Shown here piece by piece: positions 26,716 through 40,733 of a DNA stretch of 64,000 nucleotides. Below the pieces are notes generated by a model. The model was not told where the DNA came from and did no database searches. It saw nothing but the letters and a program-made list of their open reading frames with translations. Source of the DNA: a virus; IMG/VR virus record IMGVR_UViG_3300008111_000001; one strand, 5' to 3'. Each line of letters begins with the position of its first letter. The stretch's first letter is position 1. Made by a program: the position numbers and the translations under genes.

Positions 26716-27855
26716 TCAAATGAGAGAAGAAAGATTCAGAAAAACATCAGACACAGCTTTATCAAAAGATATAGAAACGTCAAAATTTGTATGAGAATTA
26801 TCTATAAATCTTTGGACAGCCTCACTAAAAGTCAAGGGAGGAGACTGAAGTTTTCGAAGATATTTATAGTATTTTGTTTCACTATAATTGTATAAATTGC
26901 CAGTTTCTTCTTGTTCCTGGGAAGAAACACGAACGTCATCTGGATCAATACCATAATAATCAAAATAATCCAAAAGCTTTTCTGTGCCTATGAGCTGTAT
27001 TTCGGAATGAACTCTTTCAGAAATACAAGGATTAGGCCAAGGAATAGAAGAGATATCATTTATAGATATCTTCTCCCAGTTTGAGAAAGCATTCTGTATA
27101 TAAGAAAAGTCAATGTAAAAAGTTAGAGGATTTATAGGACCAGGAAGATCATAAAAAGGATTAGTGGAAAAATTAGGATTTTTATGGATCTGGAACAAAC
27201 ATTCAGGAATATTCATTGTTAAATCAAGATTGGAACCAGAATTCCAAATCCAATTATACGCAGCGTTGATTATTCCCGAAACATTGTTCTCATATCGTGT
27301 AATCTCATCCATGCTGTCAAACATGGGATTACACAGAGTAGCATTATTATAGAAGTTAAGAAGTGGTGGCAAATACACTTGAGCGGAAGAAAAATCTACA
27401 CCTTGAAGTGAATGCGACATAAAATACATGGTTATCTGATTAGGATAATGAACATCATTATATACAGAATAAGAAACTAGATAAACAGTCCAAGGCATTG
27501 GAAGTCTGTATATGTAGTTTTTAGAATTATCATAATCTATATTGTCAACCACAGCTGGTATTACTTGAATATTATGATAAGTAGGAGGACGTTCAAAAAT
27601 TACAAGTTTATTATCAACATGAATTAGTCCGGGAGGAACAATTCCAGTATCAGAGTGAATAGTGCCTTTGGTAAAAGCAGTTTGAAGATGTTTAATAATA
27701 GGATTAATTAAATCTTTTGAAATTGTCGTTTCAGAACCATTAACGTTTAAGCCATTTCTAGAATCTAAAATAGATATTACATCTTCGTAATGAGGATGTT
27801 TTATGTTTGAATAGTTATGAGATGATGAAATATAATTAAAGTTTGACATATTCAT
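26716..27855 (-). CDS. prokaryotic E2-like (Prok-E2_D/PRTRC-B-like) protein, paralogue 3
   Basis: IFERPP..LPMPWTVY..MYF..YLPPLLNFYNNATLC: N-x7-C spacing as in UBC HPN-x7-C. Confidence 0.6.
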   Translation of the reverse strand: MNMSNFNYISSSHNYSNIKHPHYEDVISILDSRNGLNVNGSETTISKDLINPIIKHLQTAFTKGTIHSDTGIVPPGLIHVDNKLVIFERPPTYHNIQVIPAVVDNIDYDNSKNYIYRLPMPWTVYLVSYSVYNDVHYPNQITMYFMSHSLQGVDFSSAQVYLPPLLNFYNNATLCNPMFDSMDEITRYENNVSGIINAAYNWIWNSGSNLDLTMNIPECLFQIHKNPNFSTNPFYDLPGPINPLTFYIDFSYIQNAFSNWEKISINDISSIPWPNPCISERVHSEIQLIGTEKLLDYFDYYGIDPDDVRVSSQEQEETGNLYNYSETKYYKYLRKLQSPPLTFSEAVQRFIDNSHTNFDVSISFDKAVSDVFLNLSSLI

Positions 27856-29419
27856 CCTGAGAAATTATTTGATAAGAGGAAGTGGATGAAAGTGGGAGAA
27901 AATAATTATTATCTGTATAAGCTTTCAACATTTCCAAATACATTTGATGAGGGGTCATTTCAGAGGTAGCAAAATATATAGCGCTATCGGGGTAGTTATA
28001 AATGATAGTGGGATAATTTTGAGAATTTAAAACAGCTTCGTTTATGTCTAAGCCTTTAGAGTATCTTAAAAGATTTCTAAAGTGAGTCATAGGATTGCTA
28101 TGAGCAGGAGAATTAGCAAAAATAATATTTTTACTAAAAGAAGTATATTCGGAGAAAATCATATTATCAGCACAAGATTTGTTAATAATTCCACGAATAT
28201 AATTAGAGTTTAAAGTGTAAGAAGAAGAGAGTTGTTTGGTAGAAATTTGCTTAAATGTATAAGTATAAGCGGAGAGATGATTGAAATCATTAATAAAGTA
28301 TATTGAATTTTTAGCTTTGGCGGATAAATCTTTAGCAATGATATCATATTCCTCTTGACAAGCTAGAACTTCAGTAAGAGAAAATGTAGAAATGATAGAT
28401 AAGAAAGCGTAATGAAAATATTCGTGACCAAGATAACTAAAGAATTTTTTAGCACCGTAGTTTTTGTATACATTATAGATTTTAGTAATTTTATTTAATC
28501 CGGACTTTTCAATTGTTTCAGAGTCAGGAAAAAACAACTTATGCAAATGAGGAATAGTTGAAAATATTTCTGAAGATTTTTCTTTATTTAGCAAAGAACA
28601 AAGAATTGAACTATAGAGATGTGACCAAGGATTCATAAGATCTGAATTCCAAGATCCAGCAAAGAACTCGTTGATCATATAAGAATACATAGAAGCAGGA
28701 GTTAGATTGCTTTGATCTAAGGGGAGATCATTTAAGCTATTTGAATAACATATTCTTCCATCTTGATAGGTATTGGGAAGAAAAGTCGGATAATAGTTAT
28801 CTGACATTGAAGTCAAAGACTTGTGAGAAAAATACATGTAAGAACTTGAACCAGGATAAAGTGGATTAAAAGAGTAAATAGTCCAAGGTATCCATATTGT
28901 TATAGGTGGAAGCTTTTTCCTGTAGCTACTTGCACCAGATGGTTTATAGTCTACAGTGGCTTGAAAAGGTGGACGCTCAACAAAAATAGTTCCATCAGAA
29001 GAAACATATCTAGTAGCAATAGGATAAGAAGAAGTAGGACAAACAGACTGTAAAGATTTAGAATAGTTTTCAGAAAATTTTTCCATAGATATTGAAGCAG
29101 AAAGAACAGCTTTTGCCTCAATAAAATGAGGAGTGGAATAACAGTAGCCTGAAACAGAATCTATATTTAGTTGTTCAGGAACACTAGAAAAGATTTTGTC
29201 TACGGCATCGAAGTCATAAGGACCGGAATTGTATGAAAAAAAATCTTTTGGAGTGTAACGATTATCCCATTTGGCAACAGAAGATGCGGAAGAAAAAGCG
29301 TAACGAGAAAGTATAGAACTTTCTCCAAATCCATCGGAGTACTCTATCTGATAAGATGAAAGAGAGTCTGAATTAATAATGCTGTGATCGACATGGGAGT
29401 ATTGAGAATCTAAATACAT
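27836..29419 (-). CDS. prokaryotic E2-like (Prok-E2_D/PRTRC-B-like) protein, paralogue 2
   Basis: FVERPP..IWIPWTIY..MYF..YYPTFLPNTYQDGRIC, matching the PN-x7-C / NxYxDGxIC E2 motif. Confidence 0.7.
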   Translation of the reverse strand: MYLDSQYSHVDHSIINSDSLSSYQIEYSDGFGESSILSRYAFSSASSVAKWDNRYTPKDFFSYNSGPYDFDAVDKIFSSVPEQLNIDSVSGYCYSTPHFIEAKAVLSASISMEKFSENYSKSLQSVCPTSSYPIATRYVSSDGTIFVERPPFQATVDYKPSGASSYRKKLPPITIWIPWTIYSFNPLYPGSSSYMYFSHKSLTSMSDNYYPTFLPNTYQDGRICYSNSLNDLPLDQSNLTPASMYSYMINEFFAGSWNSDLMNPWSHLYSSILCSLLNKEKSSEIFSTIPHLHKLFFPDSETIEKSGLNKITKIYNVYKNYGAKKFFSYLGHEYFHYAFLSIISTFSLTEVLACQEEYDIIAKDLSAKAKNSIYFINDFNHLSAYTYTFKQISTKQLSSSYTLNSNYIRGIINKSCADNMIFSEYTSFSKNIIFANSPAHSNPMTHFRNLLRYSKGLDINEAVLNSQNYPTIIYNYPDSAIYFATSEMTPHQMYLEMLKAYTDNNYFLPLSSTSSYQIISQDEYVKL

Positions 29420-29420
29420 T

Positions 29421-30605
29421 TTAACCTACTAAGAGAGAGTTAATATAGCTTTCTTTTTCCAAATCTTTTGTTGAATCAGAAATGTTACTCTTTTCATTTT
29501 CTGAAACAGTATGAAAGTTAGAAAGATACGGATTGATATACTCATGATATACAGTGGTAGCTTCGGTAAGACACTGGTCATAAGAGTACGAATAAGGATA
29601 GACTAAGACATTAACATCTTCATTAATGGTATTATTTGTTATAGCAAACATGTGCTTGCCTGAACAGGTTAACGAATATGTCAAAGAAAAATCTATTTCA
29701 GAAGAAGAATGATCTGAAGAAATTTTATTAGATAAAAGTTCAGTTTTTAGAGGAGAGTAAGAAGGGCAGGATGAAAGAGAATTAAAGTTAAAACATTGAG
29801 AAGAAGATTGAGATAGAACAGGATGAGAACATGAATGCATGCCGCTAACAACATTAGCGTATTTGTAATGAGAAGAAATTACAACAGGTACGGAATTGTC
29901 AATAGATTGATGAGTGTAATATTCACAGATAGGAAGATCTTTAGGAGTGGGATTATAATTAAAGAACTTCTCTAGAGGAAAAGACCAAGCTATTGAGTCA
30001 GGATTTGTGGGAGACTTGCAGGTGACAGCATAAGATAATTTAACTGAAGTGTATCCTATTGGAAGGGTGGGATTAATAAAATCACCTGCATTTAAATAAC
30101 TACGATACAATTTACTTAAAGTAGGTAGAGCGTGGTTGATGTGAACGTAAGACATGTTACAGAAGAGCTCACCTGAATTGACATAATCTATAACGATAAC
30201 ATTTGGAGGCAAAGAAGGATCGTGATTAATAAAAAGATTAAGATCAAGAGGTGTGCCTTCGGGAGAAACAAAAGGCTGTATTGTTGTTTTGTATACATTG
30301 GAGGAAACAGGAACAACTGGATATTCAGACATGGTAATATTTGCCTTTTGAGGATAAGTATATTCGGGTAAAGAAAATAGTTTTTCAGGTTCTGAAAGCT
30401 GTTGTATGTCAACGTTAACAGATTCAAAAACAAAAGGATTAGAAGTTAAAATCTTCTTTAACTCATCAATACTGTTTTGGGTAACAGATTTTTTTATGTA
30501 AGAAGAAATAAGTTTATTATATTTTTCGAGGCTTTCTGATGTGAAGCCTTCTGAAGGATAATTTTCGGAAACAGGATGATCTTCAGACATAAATATCAGT
30601 ACCAA
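29421..30605 (-). CDS. hypothetical protein, possibly a degenerate E2-like paralogue
   Basis: 394 aa; YANVVSGMHSC has N-x7-C spacing but little other recognisable similarity. Confidence 0.55.
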   Translation of the reverse strand: MVLIFMSEDHPVSENYPSEGFTSESLEKYNKLISSYIKKSVTQNSIDELKKILTSNPFVFESVNVDIQQLSEPEKLFSLPEYTYPQKANITMSEYPVVPVSSNVYKTTIQPFVSPEGTPLDLNLFINHDPSLPPNVIVIDYVNSGELFCNMSYVHINHALPTLSKLYRSYLNAGDFINPTLPIGYTSVKLSYAVTCKSPTNPDSIAWSFPLEKFFNYNPTPKDLPICEYYTHQSIDNSVPVVISSHYKYANVVSGMHSCSHPVLSQSSSQCFNFNSLSSCPSYSPLKTELLSNKISSDHSSSEIDFSLTYSLTCSGKHMFAITNNTINEDVNVLVYPYSYSYDQCLTEATTVYHEYINPYLSNFHTVSENEKSNISDSTKDLEKESYINSLLVG

Positions 30606-31138
30606 GTTATAAGTTTAGAGTTTTGAATTTGAGAAAGAAGATCAGCGTTTTGCTGCTCAAGTTCAAAGCATTTTGACTCTAATGATTTAATGTAATCAAT
30701 GTAATATTGATTATCGGCAGACACATTGGAAAAGTTATCCATGATCTGATTAAGTATTTTAATATTATCTATATTAGAACCGTTGTTGATTGAATCAAAT
30801 AGTTCTTCGGTAAATGGTATAAAATGTATGAGAACTATTGATCCAGAAGCTTCACGGATAATATTAAATATCTTTAAGTTGTTATAAAATCTTTTGTAAA
30901 GAACGTTGGGAAGATGAGGATGAACGTTTTTTCTGTAAGAAGTTTTAGAACAAGTATAAAGATAAAAAGGGTATGGAGACTGAGATACTTCATTAATAAT
31001 AGATGAATGAAGGGAATAGGTCTCAGCATAAAGTTGAACATTGTCTTCATTAAGCTTTATGGGATTACCGGAAGATAAAGATGATTCAACATAATTGAAA
31101 AGATGAGTTGAATCATTAAAGCGTTGTATCATGGTCAT
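30596..31138 (-). CDS. hypothetical protein with C-terminal coiled coil
   Basis: 180 aa ORF, operonic. Confidence 0.65.
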   Translation of the reverse strand: MTMIQRFNDSTHLFNYVESSLSSGNPIKLNEDNVQLYAETYSLHSSIINEVSQSPYPFYLYTCSKTSYRKNVHPHLPNVLYKRFYNNLKIFNIIREASGSIVLIHFIPFTEELFDSINNGSNIDNIKILNQIMDNFSNVSADNQYYIDYIKSLESKCFELEQQNADLLSQIQNSKLITWY

Positions 31139-31422
31139 GAGTTTACCTCTATGGAATATAGTTCAACTTTACCAGTTTTTATGAACTCTTGAAGAGTAGT
31201 TGAAGCTACGTGCAAGGACGTGATTGTGGGATAGAAAGACTTAGCCAAAGGATATATTTGGCTAAGATAAGTTATATTTTTTAATATAGTATTAGAATAG
31301 TTATCTACAAATAAAACGCAAGAAGAATCAGGCGTTTGTATCAGATAGCTTTTCTGAAGCCAAGTTGTTAACGGCTGAGGCAACTCTCGGATTTTCGTCA
31401 GCCAAGATTCCTTTTGATGCAT
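31135..31422 (-). CDS. hypothetical protein
   Basis: 95 aa ORF; the 5' part overlaps the previous gene, so the true start is uncertain. Confidence 0.45.
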   Translation of the reverse strand: MHQKESWLTKIRELPQPLTTWLQKSYLIQTPDSSCVLFVDNYSNTILKNITYLSQIYPLAKSFYPTITSLHVASTTLQEFIKTGKVELYSIEVNS

Positions 31423-31714
31423 TCTGCATTACCTCTAGCATTTGTTTGCGCGATTGCTGCAAAGTTTCATGGAAAGCTCTACGAGCCTCATCGGTAGCAA
31501 AAGCAATCTGACCAACTAAGGCTTCAGTAAAAACTGCTTGCTCACCATAGCTAAGAACAAGTGTGGCGACTTGTTTCTCTATGGCTTCGAGAGATGTTTC
31601 AAGGTTTTTAAGACGGTCTTCAACCTGAGCTGCTAGACCGTTTATAATATCTTGAAAAAATTTTGTAAGAAACTCTGCGGTTGTTTTATCTAGGTATTCG
31701 TTGCTATCTGTCAT
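31328..31714 (-). CDS. hypothetical coiled-coil protein
   Basis: 128 aa heptad-rich. Confidence 0.7.
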   Translation of the reverse strand: MTDSNEYLDKTTAEFLTKFFQDIINGLAAQVEDRLKNLETSLEAIEKQVATLVLSYGEQAVFTEALVGQIAFATDEARRAFHETLQQSRKQMLEVMQNASKGILADENPRVASAVNNLASEKLSDTNA

Positions 31715-32352
31715 ATTTCATACCAATCCTGATTGTTAGTGACATAAGAAACTAAAGATAAGTCCATAAGATATGAAATGGAACAAATATCTTGACGAGT
31801 TACCTTAATCTGATCAACAGATAAAGGAGACTTCATATCTGGAATAAAAGCTCCACTGTCAGATTTGCGGGCAGCAAAGTGACCGCATTTCCAAACAAAA
31901 GCGGTACTGTCGTATGACTCACTGGACTGCCAATAGTGTGCTTTAAATATTCTAGATATAGGCTTACCGTCGATAACGGCTCCGCCGTAAGAAACAAAAC
32001 CTTCGTTTGTAGGAACGCCCATCTTTTCGTTTTGAGGATAATTAGTTACAGCATTTCCGGTGGCAATAGACTTTAAATAAGCGGAGAAATCTATTGCATC
32101 AACAAAAACAGCAGTACTGCTAATAAGCTTACCCTCAGGAGAAGTCTTGCCAATATCAATCTTCATCTTCAAAGCTTGATGCCAAGGACGAATAGCTAAA
32201 AATCCTGATTGAGTCTTAGATCTAAACCACTTTTTATAAAGTTCTTGATGAAATTCTTTATTATCAGAATTCTTCAAAGTATCAGTAGGAGAGCCGTCTT
32301 CGTCAAGAGAAGATAGAAAATCTTCCACATTACTGTAAGCGTTATCAGTCAT
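31711..32352 (-). CDS. hypothetical protein
   Basis: 213 aa, AGGAG RBS, directly after the AAA gene. Confidence 0.75.
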   Translation of the reverse strand: MTDNAYSNVEDFLSSLDEDGSPTDTLKNSDNKEFHQELYKKWFRSKTQSGFLAIRPWHQALKMKIDIGKTSPEGKLISSTAVFVDAIDFSAYLKSIATGNAVTNYPQNEKMGVPTNEGFVSYGGAVIDGKPISRIFKAHYWQSSESYDSTAFVWKCGHFAARKSDSGAFIPDMKSPLSVDQIKVTRQDICSISYLMDLSLVSYVTNNQDWYEI

Positions 32353-32364
32353 TTTTTCTCCTTT

Positions 32365-33969
32365 TTATTTCCATGTTACTGAGGCTGGCTGTTTTTGGGG
32401 TGATGTTTTCGAAAGCATTATTATAGCATCATTCATCTGCTCTGTGGATGCCCAATCCCACTGCTCTAAGGCATACTTGTACATTGAGACAACTGTTTCA
32501 TTGTGTTTCATCCATATGATATTCTTCATTTTTGGAGCATAAGTAAGAATATCATTAGTTTCAATGGGTCTTAGGGATTCGGAAACAACATAAAACTTTG
32601 TTTCTCTGATAAGAGAAACTATCTCTGCACCAGTCATATACTGGGTGGCTTGAGCAAGAGAATCATAATCATAAGAATGATCAGTATCAATCTTGGAAAG
32701 ATGTATTTGGAAGATGTGTTTGCGCTCTTCAAAAGAAGGTAGACCAACAAACATAATTTTGTCAAAGCGATCAGCACGAAGCATCTCTGGTCTCAAGGAA
32801 TCAAGAGAGTTTGCGGCACACAACAAGAAGGTGTCCTCTGGAAGTTCTTGCAAGCCGGTAAGAAACTCGCCATGGACACGATCAGTAGTGCCACCATCTA
32901 CATGAGAAGAGCTGGATCCACCGGAAAGGTCACGACCAAACTCGTCAATCCAAACACATAGAGGAGACATAGCTTTAATTTGCTTGAAGACAGAACGCAT
33001 ATTGGCCTCTGATTGACCAATGAAAGAATTCATCACTTGACTAATGCCGGTTCTGGCAAGATCAAGATCGAGTTCTTTAGCAGTTGCTTGACAGATGGCC
33101 GATTTGCCAGTGCCCGGTACTCCAACCATAAGAAGTCTTCTAATTGGAGTAACACCAAAGGAGGCGGTGCGTTGCTGATCTTTGCGCAACACAGAGGTAC
33201 GGCGAATGATATCTTTAATATTATCAAGGCCACCAATATCAGCAAAAGATATTGCAGGCTTAACTATTTCAAGAATACCATTCTTCTTTATATTGGCCAT
33301 CTTGACGTCATAAATATATTTGGGATCAATCTTAGAATGATTGACGACAGACATCAAGCAAAGGTCAATAAATTGAGATTCAGAGAGACCAATGCCAGCG
33401 TTCACGACATCTTTTATTGAAGTATCAGGTAAAAGACGGTCATGAGCTGCTTCATTGATATGGGTAACAATCGTAGAAAGTTCTTGAGGAGTTGGATAAG
33501 AATCTTCTAAGATTGTAAAAAGATGGGCAAAGTCTTCTGGGCATTCGAGAGCAGAAACAAATATAAACTGCAGAGGCATTGCAGCAATATCGTCAGACCA
33601 AAACGCTGTACGATAAAGAGATTTGAAATGAGAAAGTACAGAAGAATAAGGTGAAATGGCCTCAGCGGGGGAAGAAGGAATATTGACAATATAAGTAGAA
33701 CGAGTAATGGACTTATCTGTCATAAGATAATGTAAGGCTACTTGGGGATCAAATGTAGTTGTGTGAGACTCAGTACTCATATCAGGAAAAGCAGGATTTG
33801 GTACAAGCACAGGTTTCCATTGTCCATCAACAAACTTAGAAAAGCCGTTAACAAAATCTATAGAATAAAAGTTGCGAGATATAGTAGATGTAATGATATC
33901 AGTAACTCTTGAAGGATCAGAAGACTGAATCCAAAGGTTAGGATATCCGAGTTTAATTTTGTCGAACAT
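32365..33969 (-). CDS. AAA+ ATPase (Ycf46/Cdc48-like; degenerate N-terminal plus active C-terminal AAA module)
   Basis: Walker A GVPGTGKS, Walker B CVWIDE, sensor/SRH CAAN..L.PEMLRADRFD. Confidence 0.92.
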   Translation of the reverse strand: MFDKIKLGYPNLWIQSSDPSRVTDIITSTISRNFYSIDFVNGFSKFVDGQWKPVLVPNPAFPDMSTESHTTTFDPQVALHYLMTDKSITRSTYIVNIPSSPAEAISPYSSVLSHFKSLYRTAFWSDDIAAMPLQFIFVSALECPEDFAHLFTILEDSYPTPQELSTIVTHINEAAHDRLLPDTSIKDVVNAGIGLSESQFIDLCLMSVVNHSKIDPKYIYDVKMANIKKNGILEIVKPAISFADIGGLDNIKDIIRRTSVLRKDQQRTASFGVTPIRRLLMVGVPGTGKSAICQATAKELDLDLARTGISQVMNSFIGQSEANMRSVFKQIKAMSPLCVWIDEFGRDLSGGSSSSHVDGGTTDRVHGEFLTGLQELPEDTFLLCAANSLDSLRPEMLRADRFDKIMFVGLPSFEERKHIFQIHLSKIDTDHSYDYDSLAQATQYMTGAEIVSLIRETKFYVVSESLRPIETNDILTYAPKMKNIIWMKHNETVVSMYKYALEQWDWASTEQMNDAIIMLSKTSPQKQPASVTWK

Positions 33970-34004: not shown

Positions 34005-34056
34005 AAAAAATATAGTGAGTGGGGGGAGGGCACTCATAAAGAGTAACCCTCCCCCC
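34005..34056 (-). terminator. rho-independent terminator-like hairpin after the Ubl gene
   Basis: GGGGGGAGGG/CCCTCCCCCC 10-bp stem with inner ACTC/GAGT stem; T-run on the minus strand. Confidence 0.65.
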
Positions 34057-34096: not shown

Positions 34097-34351
34097 TCAG
34101 CCCTTCTCGCCAGCACGACGATGGAACTCGACGTTCTGGCCAGGCTGGACTACCGCGTTCTCGTCAAGCTTATCCTTGCCACAGTAGGCGACAGCATCGC
34201 TTGGGATACCCCAAATCTTGCTGAACTGCTCGCGGATTTCCTTGATTGACTTACCAGCAATGTTGCTGGGCTGGTTGTAAACACCATAGCGGATATTAGC
34301 CATTCCGGTGGGACGATTTGGCTGAGCTCCGCTGTTGCTTGAGGTTTCCAT
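34097..34351 (-). CDS. prokaryotic ubiquitin-like protein (Prok_Ub/PRTRC-C-like)
   Basis: 84 aa beta-grasp-like (GKSIKEIRE..IPSDAVAYC..LDENAVVQPGQNVEF) ending RRAGEKG-stop; strong AGGAG RBS; adjacent to E1. Confidence 0.8.
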   Translation of the reverse strand: METSSNSGAQPNRPTGMANIRYGVYNQPSNIAGKSIKEIREQFSKIWGIPSDAVAYCGKDKLDENAVVQPGQNVEFHRRAGEKG

Positions 34352-34371
34352 TTTGTTATCTCCTATTTATA

Positions 34372-35181
34372 TTATACGGTAACTGTTTCATTTAGGGCTG
34401 AATGCATTCTATTGTAGGGTTCAGATTTGCCTATGCCCAAATCGAAGAAGATCTCTGTCTCTTCTGGACTCTGGTTGGACACTATTGTTTTCTGAACTCT
34501 ACCTAGAATGAAAGATGCAACCGCCATGTTAGTGGCAAGAAGCTGTGTTCCACCTTCAATTTCAGAACGCTGTTGGCAGCTGAGTTCACCAGGATTCTTG
34601 TCCGGAGGATTATGATATTCTGGATGGAATTCAGCAGGGTGAGAAGTAATCTCTACGCCGTCACGCTTCTGATAATGATAGATAGAACCAAACAAGGCGT
34701 CGTCATTACCGCCTGTAAACACATCAATATTATTAAGTTTTGCTGCAGCGTCAAATAAAATCTTTCTTGCAGCAAAATTATCTACAACTGCAAAGACAAC
34801 ATCGTTTTCTCGAATGAGATCACTTGCTTTAATTTTGGGACTTTCTTCGTCTGCAACACCAGAAAAGTTGTCATCTACAACCCACTTTGCAACAGGGATA
34901 ATAGTAGTTTTTGGGAACTGAGGAACTAGCTCAGTAGCTTTAACTACAGCTTTGTTGCCAAGTTTAGTAAAGTCTTGACGTTCTTTATTCTTCTCTTCAT
35001 ATGTGTCACCATCTACAATAATGAGAGCAGAATTAGGAAACTTCCATTCAAGAAGACGAACAAGGCCAGCGGCAAGCCAAGTGCCGATGCCTCCAGCTCC
35101 AACAAGAATAAAACGCTTGCTATCAGTAGGATTCATAAGTATCTCTTTCATAAATATATTCTGAATAAATTGTGCATCCAT
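34372..35181 (-). CDS. E1-like ThiF/MoeB adenylyltransferase (likely start 35136)
   Basis: ILVGAGGIG, DGDTYEEKNKERQ, VVDNFAAR, putative catalytic Cys in GELSCQQR..QLLATN. Confidence 0.9.
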   Translation of the reverse strand: MDAQFIQNIFMKEILMNPTDSKRFILVGAGGIGTWLAAGLVRLLEWKFPNSALIIVDGDTYEEKNKERQDFTKLGNKAVVKATELVPQFPKTTIIPVAKWVVDDNFSGVADEESPKIKASDLIRENDVVFAVVDNFAARKILFDAAAKLNNIDVFTGGNDDALFGSIYHYQKRDGVEITSHPAEFHPEYHNPPDKNPGELSCQQRSEIEGGTQLLATNMAVASFILGRVQKTIVSNQSPEETEIFFDLGIGKSEPYNRMHSALNETVTV

Positions 35182-36823
35182 CAGAAGTTATGGTGTCAGC
35201 ATAGTGTTCCGGTTCTTTGTCTTTAGGTGAAGATATGTAATTGACAATTCTGGAAGAATACCTAGGACAAATTGCAGTATAATAATGTTCGCACTTGTAG
35301 CAATCAGAATCTTTTGAGTAAACATCATATTTACCCATAAAATTATCAAAATCAAATGCGTCTAAAGATGTTACTTGAATGGCGCAATAACAATCTTCTT
35401 TTTTCTGAGAGCAGCAAAGAGTAAGTTGCTCATCATTAGTGGGTAGATCTTTATCTAACCATTGGTCCTGCAAATAAGAGCTTATTAGATCTGGGGTAAG
35501 TCTAAGAAGCATAAAGTTGTTTTCTATGTCTTTGGTAAGCATGTAAAGTGCTGCATCCTCAGAGATATTTCTGTCTCGACAGTACTCAGACATGTTATAA
35601 ACTACTTGGTCTACTGGCGTGTCCGGTTCACATAAGGGAACGTCACAAAGAGCGCAACAGTGGTCAACATAGATAGAATTAATAGGGACATACGCAAAAC
35701 AGGATGGGCAGCTAAACTTGCCTTTTTCGCTAGAAGGGTTTGCTTCGCAAACAAGAACGACTTGATTTTCATATCCTATAGCCTCTTCTATCATATCTAA
35801 TATATGAGTAGAATAATTTATGAAACCAATTAATTGAGTATTAGTGCGTCCAGCCGCTGTAGTAGTTTGAGTACGCGCCTGGGGCTGGGGCAGTACCTGT
35901 CCATGAAGATCCGTGCGAGTACCCCCCATATTGGGGGGGCTGACTTTTTTTACTTTATCAGTCCACCCTACAACTTCAGCATCGGGAGCTTTATCAAGTG
36001 TGTATCCTTCAAATACATCTTCGGGATCAAGCTTGTAAGCTTTACCTGCCATCTGCATTTCGATATAATACTGAGTAGCACCGTTGTTAACAGACTTCTG
36101 CCAACCAAAGGTAATATGAATTCCGTCAAAGTCAGCTTGATCAGCGTGATCAGTTCCCGAAGCGTAGGCGCTCATTCCGGGATGACTGTGAACAGATCCA
36201 ACAATTAGAACATTGTCAGGCTTAATCTGAGCGATGCTATCTGGATCATAGTTGCAATGAACAGAAGTATTGGTTTGGTCAGGAACGAGAATTCCCCATC
36301 CATCAGAACCTTCTTTATTCTGATCAAAGGTCAACATGACGATAGACTCAGTGCCGTGCTGAGCCTCTACAAGCCTAAAGAATTGATCAAGCTTATCTAT
36401 AAGAATATAGGGAATTGGTGGCATATCATAGATAGCTTCTTCTTCGACACTAATGAAGTCAGAGCCTAGTTCTGGACGAGCAATAGTTACTGTGCGACCA
36501 ACAAAATTGTTGACAACTCTATAAATTTGAGAAGACTTAACAATAACAGGGGGAGGAGCAACAGTGGCAGTCTTGTTGTTGTTATTGTAAGTAACAGTGC
36601 CTGTATTAGAGGAGGGGGTGTTTGTGGGTTTAATTTCTTTTTCCTCGTTGGCAATAATATAATATATATTAAAACCAAAAGATTCGATGCATTCGCAGAT
36701 ATCAGATCTATCTGCTACGAAAGTAGGAAGACCATCAGATGTAATCCAAAGTGGATTAAGGTCTTCTAGTGTAAGATATTCTTCCTCATTTTCTTCGAGA
36801 GGAAGAGTCTGTTGATCGGACAT
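35123..36823 (-). CDS. JAB/JAMM metalloprotease (deubiquitinase-like) with Cys-rich C-terminus
   Basis: E of ESIVML plus VHSHPGMSAYASGTD (HxH-x7-S-x2-D); C-terminal CPSC..CCALC..CC..CYC..CYKC. Confidence 0.88.
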   Translation of the reverse strand: MSDQQTLPLEENEEEYLTLEDLNPLWITSDGLPTFVADRSDICECIESFGFNIYYIIANEEKEIKPTNTPSSNTGTVTYNNNNKTATVAPPPVIVKSSQIYRVVNNFVGRTVTIARPELGSDFISVEEEAIYDMPPIPYILIDKLDQFFRLVEAQHGTESIVMLTFDQNKEGSDGWGILVPDQTNTSVHCNYDPDSIAQIKPDNVLIVGSVHSHPGMSAYASGTDHADQADFDGIHITFGWQKSVNNGATQYYIEMQMAGKAYKLDPEDVFEGYTLDKAPDAEVVGWTDKVKKVSPPNMGGTRTDLHGQVLPQPQARTQTTTAAGRTNTQLIGFINYSTHILDMIEEAIGYENQVVLVCEANPSSEKGKFSCPSCFAYVPINSIYVDHCCALCDVPLCEPDTPVDQVVYNMSEYCRDRNISEDAALYMLTKDIENNFMLLRLTPDLISSYLQDQWLDKDLPTNDEQLTLCCSQKKEDCYCAIQVTSLDAFDFDNFMGKYDVYSKDSDCYKCEHYYTAICPRYSSRIVNYISSPKDKEPEHYADTITSDGCTIYSEYIYERDTYESY

Positions 36824-36877
36824 TATTTCTCCTAAATATTAATATTTCCAGTTATTTGTATATTTATGTTTTTTAAA

Positions 36878-38245
36878 TTAGAAAGGTGATTCATTATCTT
36901 GTGCATCATCTGCATTTTGGCAGGATTGACATATGCCAGAATATTTTTCGCTCATGATAAAGGTATCAAATTCGGGATGGGTATAATAAATACCATTATC
37001 ACACTCTCCACAATATTTATATGATACACCAGGCTCAGATGGTAGATAAATCCACACATCAGAAAGAGACAACCAAAGAACACTGCCACCTTCAGGGTGA
37101 TGATATTCGTTAGTATTTATGGCTAAAACATAACCTTCAAAACAAGAATCGCATATGAAAGGTGAATGAGCAGAAGAATTAGGACATATGTCTGTTGTGA
37201 AATATTCTTCACAGTCTTCACAGCTCCAACAGTTTTCTGAATCTTCTTCTTCATCAACGAAAACAGGTGCAGCAGTACTCTGGTTTAGTTTAACGTTTTC
37301 AGAATTTTCAATAACATTGATAACAGGAGGCTGAGTAGTAGAAGAATTGTAAGCCATTTTAAACCAATCAAATACTTTTGCCGCAGGAAGTGTGTAGTCG
37401 GAACGAAGTATTTGATTAACAGGCTTAGGGATTGTTGTATCAGTATAATATGCTTGATAGTTGCCGGAGATGGCATCTGCCAAAGTTAATGGCTGACCAT
37501 TGGAATAATGCTTATCTTGATGGTCGCGATCTTTAACTAAAACTGGAATCCAAATATTAGGATCTAAAGTCCATTCGTATCCATTTTTATCAGAATAGTT
37601 TTGCCATGCTATAGGATCGTGAAGATGCAACTCTTTACTATTCTCGCGGTAAAATCGAGGGCCATCAGTTTCGCTCATATTCTGATCGTTATAAGCTTCT
37701 GTTCCAGAGCAACGATCAAGAACTTTTGCTAGCTTTTCACCGAAAGGATACTTGGATATATCTTCGTTGTGATACAAACAAATCCAACCAACACCATTGC
37801 CACGATAGCCTTTGCAGTTGATGTTTGGAAGATTAACATGATACAAGGGAGCATGAGGATATGTGATGGGAACTGGGGAATAAAACGTTCTAGCACCATA
37901 AATATTGCCGTCCATAAGATCGGCAATAACTATTCTGTATGGTTGAGCAACATAATATTTTGTGGCATTTTTGTCACCTTCGTATTGTCCCCAGTTAATG
38001 TAATACATTCCGGGTTTGTGTTGATAAACAATTTGAGTGTGATTGCCAGCAGAACGAAGAGCTAACAAACCTGAGCCATCAACAGGCATGAGACCAGTAT
38101 CAATGTAGGAATAGTTAGAAAAAGAAGTGTAAAAAGAAGTCAGATCTTTATCAGTGACATGATCTAAACCAAAAGAATTAACTGAAGAACGGAAAGTAAG
38201 ATTTCCCTCTTCAGTGTTAATGAAAGAGTATTGAACGTTGCTCAT
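36878..38245 (-). CDS. prokaryotic E2-like (Prok-E2_D/PRTRC-B-like) protein with C-terminal Zn fingers, paralogue 1
   Basis: QPYRIVI..RTFYSP..APLYHVNLPNIN..GVGWICLY; C-terminal CEDC, CDSC, CGEC, CQSC. Confidence 0.65.
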   Translation of the reverse strand: MSNVQYSFINTEEGNLTFRSSVNSFGLDHVTDKDLTSFYTSFSNYSYIDTGLMPVDGSGLLALRSAGNHTQIVYQHKPGMYYINWGQYEGDKNATKYYVAQPYRIVIADLMDGNIYGARTFYSPVPITYPHAPLYHVNLPNINCKGYRGNGVGWICLYHNEDISKYPFGEKLAKVLDRCSGTEAYNDQNMSETDGPRFYRENSKELHLHDPIAWQNYSDKNGYEWTLDPNIWIPVLVKDRDHQDKHYSNGQPLTLADAISGNYQAYYTDTTIPKPVNQILRSDYTLPAAKVFDWFKMAYNSSTTQPPVINVIENSENVKLNQSTAAPVFVDEEEDSENCWSCEDCEEYFTTDICPNSSAHSPFICDSCFEGYVLAINTNEYHHPEGGSVLWLSLSDVWIYLPSEPGVSYKYCGECDNGIYYTHPEFDTFIMSEKYSGICQSCQNADDAQDNESPF

Positions 38246-38933: not shown

Positions 38934-39072
38934 AGTGTTGTGGTGTTACTGTCGTGAAAAAACTGGCTAGTATAATATCAATCTGTTTTTCTGGGGTTTT
39001 GTTCTTTAATCTATTATTAATAACTTTAGCGCTGAGGCCAAGTAAAACAACTGGAAGTATTAAGAGGTGCAT
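38863..39072 (-). CDS. small membrane-anchored hypothetical protein
   Basis: N-terminal hydrophobic segment. Confidence 0.5.
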   Translation of the reverse strand: MHLLILPVVLLGLSAKVINNRLKNKTPEKQIDIILASFFTTVTPQHFGEFNEDIKDEIETSTRKRENSY

Positions 39073-39521
39073 AATGCAATATTCCTTTTTGCGGATCGGT
39101 ATTTTGCGCCATCAGTTCCTACAAAATTTAGGAAAAGTTCACTAAGAGCTAATATACCGAGACCTAGTGTATTGGTGAAGTTAAAAATAATATTTAAAAG
39201 GAACAAAGTAAAAGCGGTTAAGAATCCTACGATAGGACCCGAAAGAGCAACTTTTATTTTTGACTCATTGGATAAACCAGGAGCCTTAACAAATGCTACA
39301 GCAAATAATGGAAATGGAATAAAAATAGGCAATGATGCTTTAGAGCCAAGTTTTCTGGCCATAAAATAGTGAGATATCTCATGAGCAAAAAGAACTAGTA
39401 TGGCAAAGAAAACAAAAGAACTATGAACTATAGAGTAGTTGATTGCAGCTACAGCAGATGCGCTAGCTATAGTCCATGTGATTTTTGGTATCTTACGAAA
39501 AAAAGATTTTATCTTGTTCAT
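39060..39521 (-). CDS. minimal M50 (site-2) membrane zinc metalloprotease
   Basis: HEISH in a TM segment, IALSGP-like VALSGP, LNFVGTDG (N..DG). Confidence 0.75.
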   Translation of the reverse strand: MNKIKSFFRKIPKITWTIASASAVAAINYSIVHSSFVFFAILVLFAHEISHYFMARKLGSKASLPIFIPFPLFAVAFVKAPGLSNESKIKVALSGPIVGFLTAFTLFLLNIIFNFTNTLGLGILALSELFLNFVGTDGAKYRSAKRNIALCTS

Positions 39522-40471
39522 TTATTGACCACAAGGTTGAAGGGAATATTGTAGAAATCGGCAATGTCTTTGAGAAGACCATCGTTTGCCATATCAATAA
39601 ATGCATTAGCATACATAGTAGATAGGTGTTCATCTGAAACAGATTCGTTAAGTTGAACCAAAAACTTATCTGGATCAGTAATGTAAGTATCATCAATCAA
39701 ATCTTGATTAATAGGAAGGTTAAGCTTTTCGCCCAAATGCTTGTAAATTAGTCTGTCAACATTTAAGCAAAAGAGTGAAATGTTGACACTGGAAAGATAG
39801 AATGTTTTAACATGATCAAAAGAATATTCCATTTTAAGAATATCAAAAAGTTCTTTGAGAACATTTTCGTCAGGATCAGTACTAGAAAAAATTTTGTTCA
39901 TCATTGAAAGATAACGAAGTCTTTGAAGTATAAGAGCTTCTTTATGATTGAACATTTGAATTTTAGAAAAGTCTCCATTGGTTAAAGTATTGAGAACAAT
40001 GGAGATAGATTTCATGTAAGAAGGAGCCTGAATCTTTTGATAATAAGCTGCAGTAGCCTCATGGAAGCTAGCAGCAAGCTTTACCTTTTGTTCGTCAATA
40101 GGAGAATTATTATCTAAAGAAATTTCATCTACAAATTTCTTAGCAGAAGAAATAAAATCTTCTACATTTTTATTTCTATTGGAAGATGATGGAGCGTAAG
40201 CTTCAGATTGGAGTGAAACAGAAGAGGTATCTTCAGTATCTGTTTCTGGATCATAATCAAAAAGATCATCATCATTCTGAGGGTGATTCATCTTTCTTTG
40301 CAGCCTTTCTGTAGTATCTGCGCTTAGGATTAAGAAGTCTAAAGTTTTCAACTCTGGCCATTTGAACAAACTGTTTAGCTTTTTCAATGGTAAGATTAAG
40401 AAGATCGTTATCAAGATACTGTCTGATGAAATATAAACGCTGGCGATATATCGTGCCACCCCAAACGCCAT
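39518..40471 (-). CDS. hypothetical acidic/helical protein (likely start 40291)
   Basis: long ORF; the first 60 codons overlap WhiB in another frame. Confidence 0.7.
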   Translation of the reverse strand: MAFGVARYIASVYISSDSILITIFLILPLKKLNSLFKWPELKTLDFLILSADTTERLQRKMNHPQNDDDLFDYDPETDTEDTSSVSLQSEAYAPSSSNRNKNVEDFISSAKKFVDEISLDNNSPIDEQKVKLAASFHEATAAYYQKIQAPSYMKSISIVLNTLTNGDFSKIQMFNHKEALILQRLRYLSMMNKIFSSTDPDENVLKELFDILKMEYSFDHVKTFYLSSVNISLFCLNVDRLIYKHLGEKLNLPINQDLIDDTYITDPDKFLVQLNESVSDEHLSTMYANAFIDMANDGLLKDIADFYNIPFNLVVNK

Positions 40472-40733
40472 CGTAATTATATTTCATTGCTTCGTAAAGA
40501 CAGTCAACTTGAACAGGGCAAGCTGTGCACATGCCAATTGCTTTAACAGCAGAAGAAGCAGATTTTCTATCACTGTTGATGGAAAAGAAGTCCTCCATAG
40601 TAAGAGAACTATTTCTACACAAAGCCTTGTCTCTCCATTGAGAAGTCAAATCATCAAAACATTCATAAATATTGGCAACGTTTTTGGGGGAGCCCCTACG
40701 AGAAGTAACAGGAGAACCAGGATTAGAAGTCAT
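40272..40733 (-). CDS. whiB: WhiB-family Fe-S transcription factor
   Basis: WRDKALC..FF..A.GMCTACPVQVDCL..A..GVWGG. Confidence 0.92.
   Translation of the reverse strand: MTSNPGSPVTSRRGSPKNVANIYECFDDLTSQWRDKALCRNSSLTMEDFFSINSDRKSASSAVKAIGMCTACPVQVDCLYEAMKYNYDGVWGGTIYRQRLYFIRQYLDNDLLNLTIEKAKQFVQMARVENFRLLNPKRRYYRKAAKKDESPSE

What the first reader, a model, noticed from the sequence alone, without database searches (positions are those of the whole stretch)
26716..33969. Downstream arm of the Ubl locus: AAA+ ATPase plus two or three additional E2-like paralogues
Seen: directly after the Ubl gene come an AAA+ ATPase (intact Walker A/B and Arg finger, degenerate N-terminal module) and, in the same operon, two large proteins sharing ERPP..(L/I)P(M/I)PWT.Y..MYF. 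Their motifs have exact UBC spacing N-x7-C: LPNTYQDGRIC (28748-28780) and LLNFYNNATLC (27331-27360). A weaker YANVVSGMHSC (29829-29855) lies in the 394-aa gene. Established: canonical E2s have HPN-x7-C, and Cdc48/p97-type AAA ATPases extract ubiquitylated proteins. Inference: several E2s give different substrate specificities without an E3, and the ATPase unfolds or extracts tagged proteins. The operon runs on into HTH-ssb-UDG, suggesting targets in replication or nucleoid takeover. PRTRC cassettes as I know them have one E2 and no such ATPase.
Basis: partly seen in the sequence, partly recalled or inferred. Interest (0 to 1): 0.78.

Follow-up and report, generated by a model that had tools for sequence, protein, structure and literature searches.

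The report
Phage E2-like paralogues beside AAA+ ATPase
A roughly 194-kb lake phage encodes, just downstream of its own ubiquitin-like tagging genes, two fast-evolving proteins whose conserved core has the fold and the Asn...Cys signature of ubiquitin-conjugating (E2) enzymes, plus a protein-unfolding ATPase whose link to the tagging genes is not established.

Summary
The window is part of a 193.9-kb IMG/VR phage that carries a WhiB gene, so its host is probably an actinobacterium. The AAA+ ATPase (32365-33969) is real: one classic-clade AAA module with an intact F-I-G pore loop. The 527-aa and 379-aa proteins are true paralogues (HMM E 6e-8; hhalign E 1.9e-6). They share a ~135-residue core. 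AlphaFold2 models that core at pLDDT 90. Two independent structure searches return almost only E2/UEV proteins, though weakly (Z 4-6). The nearest predicted structures are Prok-E2_D-like phage proteins (TM 0.76). Asn216 and Cys224 (N-x7-C) are present in 159 of 159 family members. The 394-aa protein shows no E2 signal; its N...C spacing changes in distant homologues and it has four invariant cysteines. A conserved strong hairpin plus U-run separates the Ubl gene from the ATPase gene, so "same operon" is doubtful. The ATPase family occurs in cultured phages without any ThiF gene. A Bacillus jumbo phage has an E2-like/JAB/ThiF cassette without this ATPase. Synteny holds in all 14 relatives, but they form one collinear phage clade. 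The scan has already noted this cassette in sister genomes. I found no paper describing it.

The parts
32365..33969 (-). AAA+ ATPase, 534 aa: unassigned N-terminal region (1-230), then one classic-clade AAA module (about 279-409) and AAA_lid_3 (434-475). Walker A, Walker B, F-I-G pore loop and Arg-rich SRH are present.
   Evidence: Pfam AAA 2e-23, AAA_lid_3 7e-7. NCBIfam CDC48 D2-like stretch, 119 bits against a cut-off of 802. phrog_8638 3e-65 over residues 10-481. 33% identity to the Agrobacterium phage JP1 AAA-ATPase.
34006..34056 (-). Terminator-like element between the Ubl gene and the ATPase gene: G/C hairpin 34021-34056, then a U-run 34006-34015.
   Evidence: Fold -33.6 kcal/mol, z -5.7, 0 of 200 shuffles as good. 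A hairpin with a different inner sequence lies at the same place in five diverged relatives, z -3.8 to -6.4.
31711..32352 (-). g213, 213 aa, unknown function. It starts 12 nt after the ATPase gene and is as conserved as the E1 (72-95% identity in relatives).
   Evidence: no family; conservation.
30596..31714 (-). Three small conserved ORFs of unknown function (128, 95 and 180 aa; 31328-31714, 31135-31422, 30596-31138).
   Evidence: Conserved in the related loci; no family above threshold.
29421..30605 (-). g394, 394 aa (perhaps 389 aa from the ATG at 30590), unknown function. Its conserved core is residues 227-369, with invariant C227, N251, C259, S260, P262, C271 and C280. It was not shown to be E2-like.
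   Evidence: Alignments A4 and A6. hhalign against the E2-like family, probability 0.15%. Atlas best feature score 0.76 and a poor model.
27836..29419 (-). g527, 527 aa: variable N-terminal domain (1-122), E2-like core (residues about 129-261 = 28637-29035) with N216 and C224, and a helical C-terminal extension (264-527).
   Evidence: Core model pLDDT 90.2. Foldseek top 50 are all E2/UEV. VIA Z 6.1 to Ubc8 and 5.1 to chain D of the Bub complex 9eav. The full-length model aligns at rmsd 3.0-3.7 A over 94-99 residues to E2s. Atlas TM 0.76 to a Prok-E2_D-containing cluster.
26716..27855 (-). g379, 379 aa: E2-like core (residues about 70-212 = 27220-27648) with N167 and C175, then its own C-terminal extension, which is Cys/acid-rich in some relatives.
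   Evidence: hhalign A1 against A3, E 1.9e-6. HMM built without it, E 6e-8. It keeps all the family invariants in A2. A 379-aa viral Atlas cluster matches the core model at TM 0.75.
34097..35181 (-). Context outside the finding: ThiF-type E1 (34372-35181) and an 84-aa Ubl candidate (34097-34351) that ends in an invariant GEKG followed by the stop codon.
   Evidence: Pfam ThiF 1.9e-12; alignments A7 and A8.
35123..38245 (-). Context outside the finding: JAB-domain protein (35123-36823) and g455 (36878-38245). g455 is a possible third, much more distant E2-like protein with a C-terminal region of four CxxC pairs.
   Evidence: Prok-JAB 7.5e-6. g455 against the g379 family: hhalign E 0.0048, probability 7%, collinear. 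g455 against the whole family: E 0.13. Not significant.

Best explanation
The 527-aa and 379-aa proteins are diverged paralogues. Each is built around a UBC-fold (E2-like) core of the Prok-E2_D kind, flanked by paralogue-specific extensions that evolve fast. Most likely each core accepts the phage's own Gly-ended 84-aa Ubl as a thioester on the invariant cysteine (C224 or C175) from the ThiF-type E1 encoded 5-7 kb upstream. Each would then pass the Ubl to targets chosen by its own extension, so it would act as a combined carrier and specificity factor without a separate E3. The 394-aa protein is not part of this; it is an unrelated protein with four invariant cysteines. The AAA+ ATPase is a single-ring, classic-clade unfoldase with an intact pore loop. 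It heads its own transcription unit behind a terminator-like hairpin. Whether it acts on Ubl-tagged proteins is open. Shown: paralogy, fold class, residue invariance, gene order, the hairpin, and the distribution of the ATPase. Inferred: thioester chemistry, use of this Ubl, target choice by the extensions, and any role of the ATPase.
For: Paralogy. Fold: the core model has pLDDT 90.2 and pTM 0.81. All 50 best Foldseek PDB hits are E2 or UEV chains. A Foldseek-independent search of 48,161 chains puts Ubc8 (Z 6.1), UbcH5c (5.4) and chain D of the Bub complex 9eav (5.1, rmsd 3.1 A over 91 residues) on top, and about 40 of 50 rows belong to the UBC superfamily. The independent full-length model gives the same list with rmsd 3.0-3.7 A over 94-99 residues. 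Nearest predicted structures: an Atlas cluster in which 19% of members carry Prok-E2_D, TM 0.76, rmsd 2.8 A over 141 residues. Atlas feature search: a Prok-E2_D cluster at 0.92 with 197 of 256 features shared. Prok-E2_D is the only Pfam family hit by more than one of 81 relatives (3 hits, best E 0.007). Catalytic-type residues: N216 and C224 are present in 159/159 sequences, with the same N-x7-C spacing as the HPN...C of E2s. The Cys lies just before a short helix that precedes the long helix, as in E2s. Context: ThiF E1, a Prok-JAB protein and a Ubl ending in an invariant GEKG-stop lie upstream. The gene order is kept in 12 IMG/VR loci and 2 more distant contigs. Extensions and cores evolve fast: 36-71% identity against 85-95% for the E1. 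ATPase.
Against: The structural scores are modest (Z 4-6, Foldseek E 0.05-0.5, TM to PDB E2s 0.2-0.36). The search tool itself warns that Z below 8 can reflect a common arrangement. The Pfam Prok-E2_D model finds nothing in this genome at E up to 10, and no PRTRC_B match exists. The His of the canonical HPN motif is absent (L-P-N or L-L-N). Five genes and a terminator-like hairpin lie between the Ubl gene and these proteins. All syntenic relatives belong to one collinear phage clade, so co-occurrence is not independent evidence. No residue-level superposition of the Cys on an E2 active site could be obtained. For the ATPase: homologues occur in phages JP1 and RcTiptonus, which have no ThiF. 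Bacillus phage vB_BceM_WH1 has an E2-like/JAB/ThiF cassette but no homologue of this ATPase.
Confidence: 0.55

Rival explanations
1. The two E2-like proteins do not work with the phage's own Ubl. They could be counter-defence or take-over factors that intercept or mimic host ubiquitin-like machinery (for example Bil, CBASS Cap2 or Bub-type systems). Or they could be UEV-like binding modules that use the UBC fold without thioester chemistry.
For: They lie in a different, tightly packed gene run from the E2-like/JAB/E1/Ubl cassette, behind a conserved hairpin. They evolve much faster than the E1, the Ubl and the ATPase, as arms-race proteins do. g455, next to the JAB gene, may already supply a cassette E2 (weak).
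Against: Strict invariance of Asn and Cys in 159/159 members argues for catalysis rather than mere binding. An E1 and a Gly-ended Ubl are always encoded within 7 kb. No host system is known for these uncultured phages.
Confidence: 0.2
2. The ATPase arm is functionally separate from Ubl tagging. The AAA+ protein and its tightly coupled partner g213 would form a general phage remodelling or unfolding module, for host take-over, replication or assembly, that merely sits next to the Ubl cassette in this clade.
For: Terminator-like hairpin upstream. Homologous ATPases at the same kind of genome position (after the lysis genes, before the replication genes) in Agrobacterium phage JP1 and Rhodobacter phage RcTiptonus, whose complete genomes lack ThiF. 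Bacillus phage WH1 has the cassette without the ATPase. The ATPase belongs to PHROG 8638, so the family occurs in sequenced phage genomes.
Against: The ATPase is the immediate downstream neighbour of the Ubl gene in all 14 relatives. Its closest characterised kin (Cdc48, PAN, Mpa) do process tagged proteins (established knowledge). Earlier notes of this scan report AAA+/E2/JAB/E1/Ubl operons in bacteria; I did not check them.
Confidence: 0.5
3. The shared core is not an E2 relative at all. It would be another cysteine-dependent enzyme or a structural domain whose beta-meander plus helices resembles the UBC fold by convergence.
For: Z-scores of only 4-6 and Foldseek E-values above 0.01 against solved structures. 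No sequence-profile hit to any PDB chain and none to the Pfam Prok-E2_D model in this genome. The family-specific invariants (E148, P151, W179, N258) are not E2 hallmarks.
Against: Two independent aligners and two independent models return the same superfamily almost exclusively. The N-x7-C spacing is exactly that of E2s. The closest predicted structures include Prok-E2_D carriers. The genomic context contains an E1, a JAB protein and a Ubl.
Confidence: 0.1

Closest known systems
Prok-E2_D (Pfam PF14460) / the E2-like protein of operon type 6d of Iyer, Burroughs and Aravind 2006 (PMC1779556), the type that NCBIfam calls the PRTRC cassette
   Same: UBC-like core without the canonical His of HPN but with an absolutely conserved Cys. 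It is encoded near separate ThiF-type E1, JAB and small Gly-ended Ubl genes. It is the nearest predicted-structure neighbour (TM 0.76; feature score 0.92).
   Different: The Pfam model does not detect these proteins (only 3 of 81 relatives give weak hits). The PRTRC models are not met. Here there are two tandem paralogues, possibly three, of 379-527 aa with long private extensions. They are carried by a lytic-type ~194-kb phage rather than a plasmid or ICE. No ParB gene and no alpha-helical PRTRC partner were identified.
Eukaryotic E2 ubiquitin-conjugating enzymes (UBC fold; e.g. Ubc8, UbcH5, Rad6, Ube2W)
   Same: Beta-meander, then a loop with Asn-x7-Cys, then a short helix and a long helix. 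These are the best solved-structure matches.
   Different: No N-terminal helix alpha-1 is evident. The His of HPN is replaced by Leu. There are extra strands, only 10-20% identity, and Z of only 4-6. The protein is embedded in a multidomain chain.
Bacterial Ubl conjugation systems of anti-phage defence: Bil, CBASS Cap2/Cap3, and Bub (Ye et al. 2024, PMC11601596)
   Same: E1, E2, a Ubl and a deconjugating peptidase encoded together. Chain D of the Bub complex 9eav (by its numbering probably the BubB E2; this is my inference) is among the three best structural matches, with the lowest rmsd (3.1 A over 91 residues). CdnG-E2 also appears (Z 3.5).
   Different: Those systems are host-encoded defence systems. 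Bub works through oxyesters and lacks the catalytic Cys (abstract of PMC11601596). Cap2 is an E1-E2 fusion. Here the genes are separate, Cys-based, multiplied, and carried by the virus.
Cdc48/p97, PAN and Mpa: classic-clade AAA+ unfoldases that process tagged proteins
   Same: AAA plus AAA_lid_3 module, an aromatic-hydrophobic-Gly pore loop, and Arg fingers. Best NCBIfam matches are CDC48 D2 (1.4e-34) and PAN (1.4e-33).
   Different: Only one AAA module. There is no recognisable Cdc48 N-domain, no PAN coiled coil/OB and no Mpa domain. Scores lie far below every curated cut-off. The closest real relatives are phage AAA-ATPases of unknown function (phrog_8638; JP1, RcTiptonus and mycobacteriophage proteins).
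E2-like/JAB/ThiF cassette of Bacillus jumbo phages vB_BceM_WH1 and Edson
   Same: A cultured-phage ThiF at 27% identity to this E1. It is preceded by a JAB-motif protein (Prok-JAB, E 0.003, below the Pfam cut-off) and by a 241-aa protein. That protein matches my E2-like family HMM (E 0.01 in a small search space) over HMM positions 16-125, including a Cys-bearing PFSN..YIC stretch.
   Different: One short E2-like gene rather than large tandem paralogues. No AAA534 homologue anywhere in the genome. A NADAR gene follows the ThiF gene.

Membership tests
UBC/E2 superfamily (fold level) | Alpha/beta core: antiparallel beta-meander followed by a long loop and helices | tested here: met
   AF2 core model with pLDDT 90.2: six strands, a loop, a short helix and a long helix. 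E2/UEV chains fill the Foldseek top 50 and about 40 of 50 rows of the VIA wide search. rmsd 3.0-3.7 A over 94-99 residues with the second model. The scores are modest (Z 4-6).
UBC/E2 superfamily (fold level) | Catalytic Cys in the loop before the short helix, with a conserved Asn 8 residues upstream (the Asn of HPN) | tested here: met
   N216 and C224 (g527) and N167 and C175 (g379). Both residues are present in 159/159 family domains and invariant in A2. No atom-level superposition was available.
UBC/E2 superfamily (fold level) | His of the HPN motif | tested here: not met
   The motif reads L-P-N (g527 family) or L-L-N / P-x-N (g379 family). The same loss is described for prokaryotic operon type 6d E2s (PMC1779556).
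UBC/E2 superfamily (fold level) | Forms a Ubl thioester in an E1-dependent manner | not testable with these tools
   Needs biochemistry.
Pfam Prok-E2_D (PF14460) | Match to the family HMM above the gathering score (25 bits) | tested here: not met
   No match in the whole phage genome at E up to 10. No hit for g527, g379, g394 or g455 at E 0.1. 3 of 81 relatives hit weakly, best E 0.007.
PRTRC cassette (NCBIfam TIGR03735-03741) | Matches to the PRTRC_A, PRTRC_B and PRTRC_ThiF models above their cut-offs | tested here: not met
   PRTRC_A 20.7 bits against 101.8. PRTRC_ThiF 26.2 bits against 144.75. No PRTRC_B hit for any E2-like candidate.
Classic-clade AAA+ ATPase | Walker A, Walker B, second region of homology with Arg fingers, and the AAA_lid_3 helical lid | tested here: met
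   Pfam AAA 83.7 bits (cut-off 21.2) and AAA_lid_3 29.1 bits (cut-off 27.2). The motifs can be read and are conserved across 11 homologues.
Cdc48/p97 family | Tandem D1 and D2 AAA modules plus the N-domain; NCBIfam TIGR01243 above 802 bits | tested here: not met
   119.5 bits, and only the D2-equivalent stretch 232-485 matches. The N-terminal half shows no AAA similarity.
E2-like family of g527/g379 (this report), candidate member g394 | Detectable profile similarity, and the E...PP / PW / N-x7-C / WN.D motif series | tested here: not met
   hhalign probability 0.15%. Family HMM -2.3 bits. Atlas features 0.76 with no E2 family. The N...C spacing varies (x7 or x6), and distant homologues have only about 45 residues before the motif.
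E2-like family of g527/g379 (this report), candidate member g455 | Detectable profile similarity to the family | tested here: inconclusive
   A collinear alignment runs from DTG..P..GLL to LPN...IC, but hhalign gives E 0.0048 at probability 7% against the g379 family and E 0.13 against the whole family. No structure model was made.

The most novel reading that the evidence does not exclude
A clade of ~200-kb lake phages, probably infecting actinobacteria, runs its own ubiquitin-style pathway. One E1 and one Gly-ended Ubl would feed three E2-like carriers (g455, g527, g379). The private, fast-evolving extensions of these carriers would pick different host or phage targets without any E3. The adjacent single-ring AAA+ unfoldase would extract or unfold the tagged proteins. 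This would be a virus-encoded analogue of the ubiquitin-Cdc48 axis, used for host take-over rather than defence.
Probability: 0.2. Interest if true: 0.85.

Novelty: new variant of a known kind. Interest (0 to 1): 0.6.

Why it matters
Ubiquitin-like conjugation in bacteria has so far been studied as host defence against phages (CBASS Cap2/Cap3, Bil, Bub). Here the virus carries an E1, a Ubl, a JAB peptidase and at least two, perhaps three, E2-like carriers. The family has about 365 clusters at 50% identity (E up to 0.001). I found it only in uncultured phage and metagenome sequences, and not in 50,697 cultured phage records. If the carriers are active, phages would be using Ubl tagging offensively. 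E2 multiplication with private extensions would be a simple, E3-free way to diversify targets. The work also narrows the claim: the third proposed E2 is not supported, and the ATPase link is weaker than gene order suggests. A cultured Bacillus jumbo phage with a related, simpler cassette offers an experimental entry point.

Tried and rejected
(1) A complex prediction of E1 (two copies) + Ubl + the g527 core gave no verdict (score 0.17, mark 0.32). It counts neither for nor against binding.

(2) Sequence-profile searches of the PDB found nothing useful. The g527 family gave no match. The g379 family gave no relevant match. g455 gave only insignificant zinc-finger or RING-like hits on its Cys-rich tail.

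(3) PADLOC, PHROGs and NCBIfam have no family for g527, g379, g394 or g455.

(4) megablast of the region and tblastn of g527 and g455 against 50,697 cultured phage records found no match.

(5) A pattern scan of 185,579 species genomes for the g527 family found no relative.

(6) g213 was compared with the genes that follow the ATPase in phages JP1 and RcTiptonus. BLASTP found no similarity.

(7) The sigma-70 promoter scan was no better than shuffled sequence: 68 sites against 59 expected.

(8) The test for a degenerate N-terminal AAA module was negative.

(10) Literature searches for a phage-encoded E1/E2/JAB/Ubl system found no paper describing it.

(11) Pfam did not assign the Bacillus phage WH1 gp214 to Prok-E2_D, so no transitive sequence link to that family was obtained.

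Full report
SETTING. The window is bases 129594-193593 of a 193,906-bp IMG/VR virus record that CheckV estimates to be 92% complete. It has about 35-40% G+C, seven scattered tRNA genes and collagen-like fibre and halogenase genes. It also has a WhiB gene, at about window 40437-40637. A distant relative carries a WhiB gene too, which points to an actinobacterial host.

All genes of the finding lie on the minus strand. In transcription order they are:
- g134
- g455
- JAB protein (566 aa)
- ThiF-type E1 (269 aa)
- Ubl candidate (84 aa)
- [127-nt spacer]
- AAA+ ATPase (534 aa)
- g213
- g128
- g95
- g180
- g394
- g527
- g379
- HTH (MerR_1, E 3.9e-4, below the Pfam cut-off)
- g78
- SSB
- UDG
.

THE ATPASE. 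Pfam finds one AAA domain (2e-23) and AAA_lid_3 (7e-7). The best NCBIfam matches are the D2 part of CDC48 and PAN, far below their cut-offs. Walker A, Walker B, an F-I-G pore loop and the Arg-rich second region of homology are present. They are conserved in 11 homologues. So this is a classic-clade, probably substrate-threading, AAA+ protein. It is not a Cdc48 family member, because it has a single AAA module. Its N-terminal 230 residues show no AAA similarity. The whole protein matches phrog_8638, of unknown function, at 3e-65.

THE TWO LARGE PARALOGUES.
- Paralogy. g527 and g379 match by BLASTP (E 0.002), by profile-profile comparison of their orthologue sets (E 1.9e-6, probability 89.7%), and with an HMM built without g379 (E 6e-8).
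- Family size and distribution. The family has 365 representatives at 50% identity with E up to 0.001. None is found in cultured phages or in species-representative prokaryote genomes.
- Conserved residues. In 161 domain sequences, E148, P151, P178, W179, N216, C224 and N258 occur in all 159 that cover the column. The N-x7-C spacing equals that of the HPN...C motif of E2 enzymes.
- Models. An AlphaFold2 model of residues 120-275 with 81 sequences has pLDDT 90.2. It shows six strands and a long loop carrying N216 and C224. The Cys lies just before a short helix, and a long helix follows.
- Matches to solved structures. Foldseek against the PDB returns only E2 or UEV chains in the top 50, at weak E-values of 0.05-0.5. 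A Foldseek-independent search of 48,161 representative chains ranks Ubc8 (Z 6.1), UbcH5c (5.4) and chain D of the Bub complex 9eav (5.1; rmsd 3.1 A over 91 residues) first. About 40 of its 50 rows are UBC-superfamily members, including UEV, Atg3, Atg10, Ufc1 and CdnG-E2. The independent full-length model (pLDDT 77.5) gives the same list, with rmsd 3.0-3.7 A over 94-99 residues spanning model residues 129-261.
- Matches to predicted structures. The nearest is an Atlas cluster in which 19% of members carry Pfam Prok-E2_D (TM 0.76, rmsd 2.8 A over 141 residues). The Atlas feature search also points to Prok-E2_D (score 0.92). The best BFVD hits are uncharacterised proteins of uncultured Caudovirales (E 3e-8).
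- Formal membership. It is not met. The PF14460 model finds nothing in this genome, and only 3 of 81 relatives give weak hits. No PRTRC_B match exists.

I conclude that the core is a diverged UBC-fold domain of the Prok-E2_D kind with a catalytic-type Cys. The individual Z-scores are modest. The consistency across two models and three search methods is what carries the argument.

THE THIRD CANDIDATE. g394 has no similarity to the family. The Atlas gives no E2 signal and holds only a poor model. Its motif Y-x-x-A-N-x7-C-S-x-P is invariant in close orthologues. However, the 189-195-aa homologues in distant relatives have N-x6-C, with only about 45 residues before the motif. That is too short for a UBC beta-meander. 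Four cysteines (C227, C259, C271, C280) are invariant, which fits a metal- or disulfide-stabilised domain better. The E2 reading is therefore unsupported, not excluded.

A POSSIBLE THIRD E2 ELSEWHERE. g455 lies upstream and belongs to another finding. It aligns collinearly with the family, from DTG..P..GLL through LPN to an I-C pair, but not significantly. Its family is large (463 clusters), highly conserved and carries no Pfam annotation. Its tail has four CxxC pairs.

IS THE ARM PART OF THE UBL SYSTEM?
In favour:
- The Ubl ends in an invariant GEKG followed by the stop codon.
- The E1 keeps its nucleotide-binding motif and an invariant Cys202.
- The order from g455 to UDG is identical in 12 IMG/VR loci and in two more distant contigs.
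Against:
- These genomes are one collinear clade, so synteny is inherited rather than independently selected.
- The 127-nt spacer after the Ubl gene holds a G/C hairpin (-33.6 kcal/mol, z -5.7) followed by a U-run. Hairpins with different inner sequences occur at the same place in five diverged relatives (z -3.8 to -6.4). This looks like an intrinsic terminator or a 3'-end stabiliser, so the ATPase arm may be a separate transcription unit.
- The ATPase family (33% identity over 392 residues) occurs in Agrobacterium phage JP1 and Rhodobacter phage RcTiptonus, whose complete genomes lack any ThiF.
- Bacillus jumbo phage vB_BceM_WH1 has a ThiF at 27% identity to this E1. Before it lie a JAB-motif protein and a 241-aa protein that matches my family HMM. 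That phage has no homologue of this ATPase.
So the ATPase and the Ubl cassette dissociate in both directions outside this clade.

EVOLUTIONARY RATES. Identity to the window protein across the loci:
- E1: 85-95%
- Ubl: 76-93%
- g213: 72-95%
- ATPase: 59-91%
- g455: 50-76%
- g379: 36-71%
- g527: 36-56%
- g394: 27-63%
The E2-like proteins and g394 are the fastest-evolving genes of the block. That fits target- or host-facing functions.

PRIOR KNOWLEDGE. Operons with separate Ubl, JAB, E1 and E2-like genes were predicted in bacteria in 2006. [quoted passage not shown] Bacterial Ubl conjugation has since been shown in anti-phage systems, and Bub works through oxyesters (PMC11601596). I found no paper on a phage-borne cassette with multiplied E2-like genes. 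This scan has already noted the same cassette, including three E2 paralogues, in sister genomes. I treated those notes as leads only.

VERDICT. There are two E2-like paralogues, not three, within the stated coordinates. The ATPase is real but of uncertain relation to the Ubl system. I class the finding as a new variant of a known kind (a Prok-E2_D-like UBC domain in a Ubl gene neighbourhood), notable for sitting in a virus and for the E2 multiplication.

Noticed in passing
window 34006-34056 (minus strand): Strong G/C hairpin plus U-run directly after the Ubl stop codon. It is conserved in position but not in inner sequence across diverged relatives, so it is probably an intrinsic terminator or a 3'-end protecting element that splits the block into two units.
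   Followed up: yes
window about 40437-40637, inside ORF 40272-40733 (minus strand): WhiB-family gene (PF02467, E 9e-13, above the cut-off). A distant relative (L016:164-547) has one too. This points to an actinobacterial host for this phage clade.
   Followed up: partly
L017:12956-14155: In a distant relative, SSB and UDG are fused into one 399-aa protein. Window SSB matches its residues 1-120 and window UDG matches 150-390. This suggests the two act together.
   Followed up: no
window 36878-38245 (g455), residues 342-442: Four invariant CxxC pairs (C342/345, C365/368, C412/415, C439/442) in the C-terminal tail of the possible cassette E2. They look like two zinc ribbons or a RING-like treble clef. 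The only PDB profile hits are insignificant zinc-finger and TRIM32 RING matches.
   Followed up: partly
L018:6719-9813 (Bacillus phage vB_BceM_WH1, gp214-gp216): A cultured 230-kb Bacillus cereus phage has a short E2-like protein, a JAB-motif protein and a ThiF in a row, followed by a NADAR gene. It has no homologue of the window's ATPase. It is a possible experimental model for phage Ubl cassettes.
   Followed up: partly
window 29421-30605 (g394): Fast-evolving protein whose conserved core has four invariant cysteines and a Y..AN-x6/7-CS.P motif. In distant relatives a 189-195-aa protein is homologous to this core. The fold and the function are unknown.
   Followed up: partly
window 31135-31714: The 128-aa and 95-aa ORFs overlap by 95 nt in different frames, yet both are conserved as proteins in relatives (45-92% and 54-91% identity). 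Either this is a real overlap or the 95-aa gene starts at a later codon.
   Followed up: no
window 39060-39521: Small (153 aa) protein with a partial Peptidase_M50 (site-2 protease) match, E 3e-7. It lies upstream of the cassette and is conserved in relatives.
   Followed up: no
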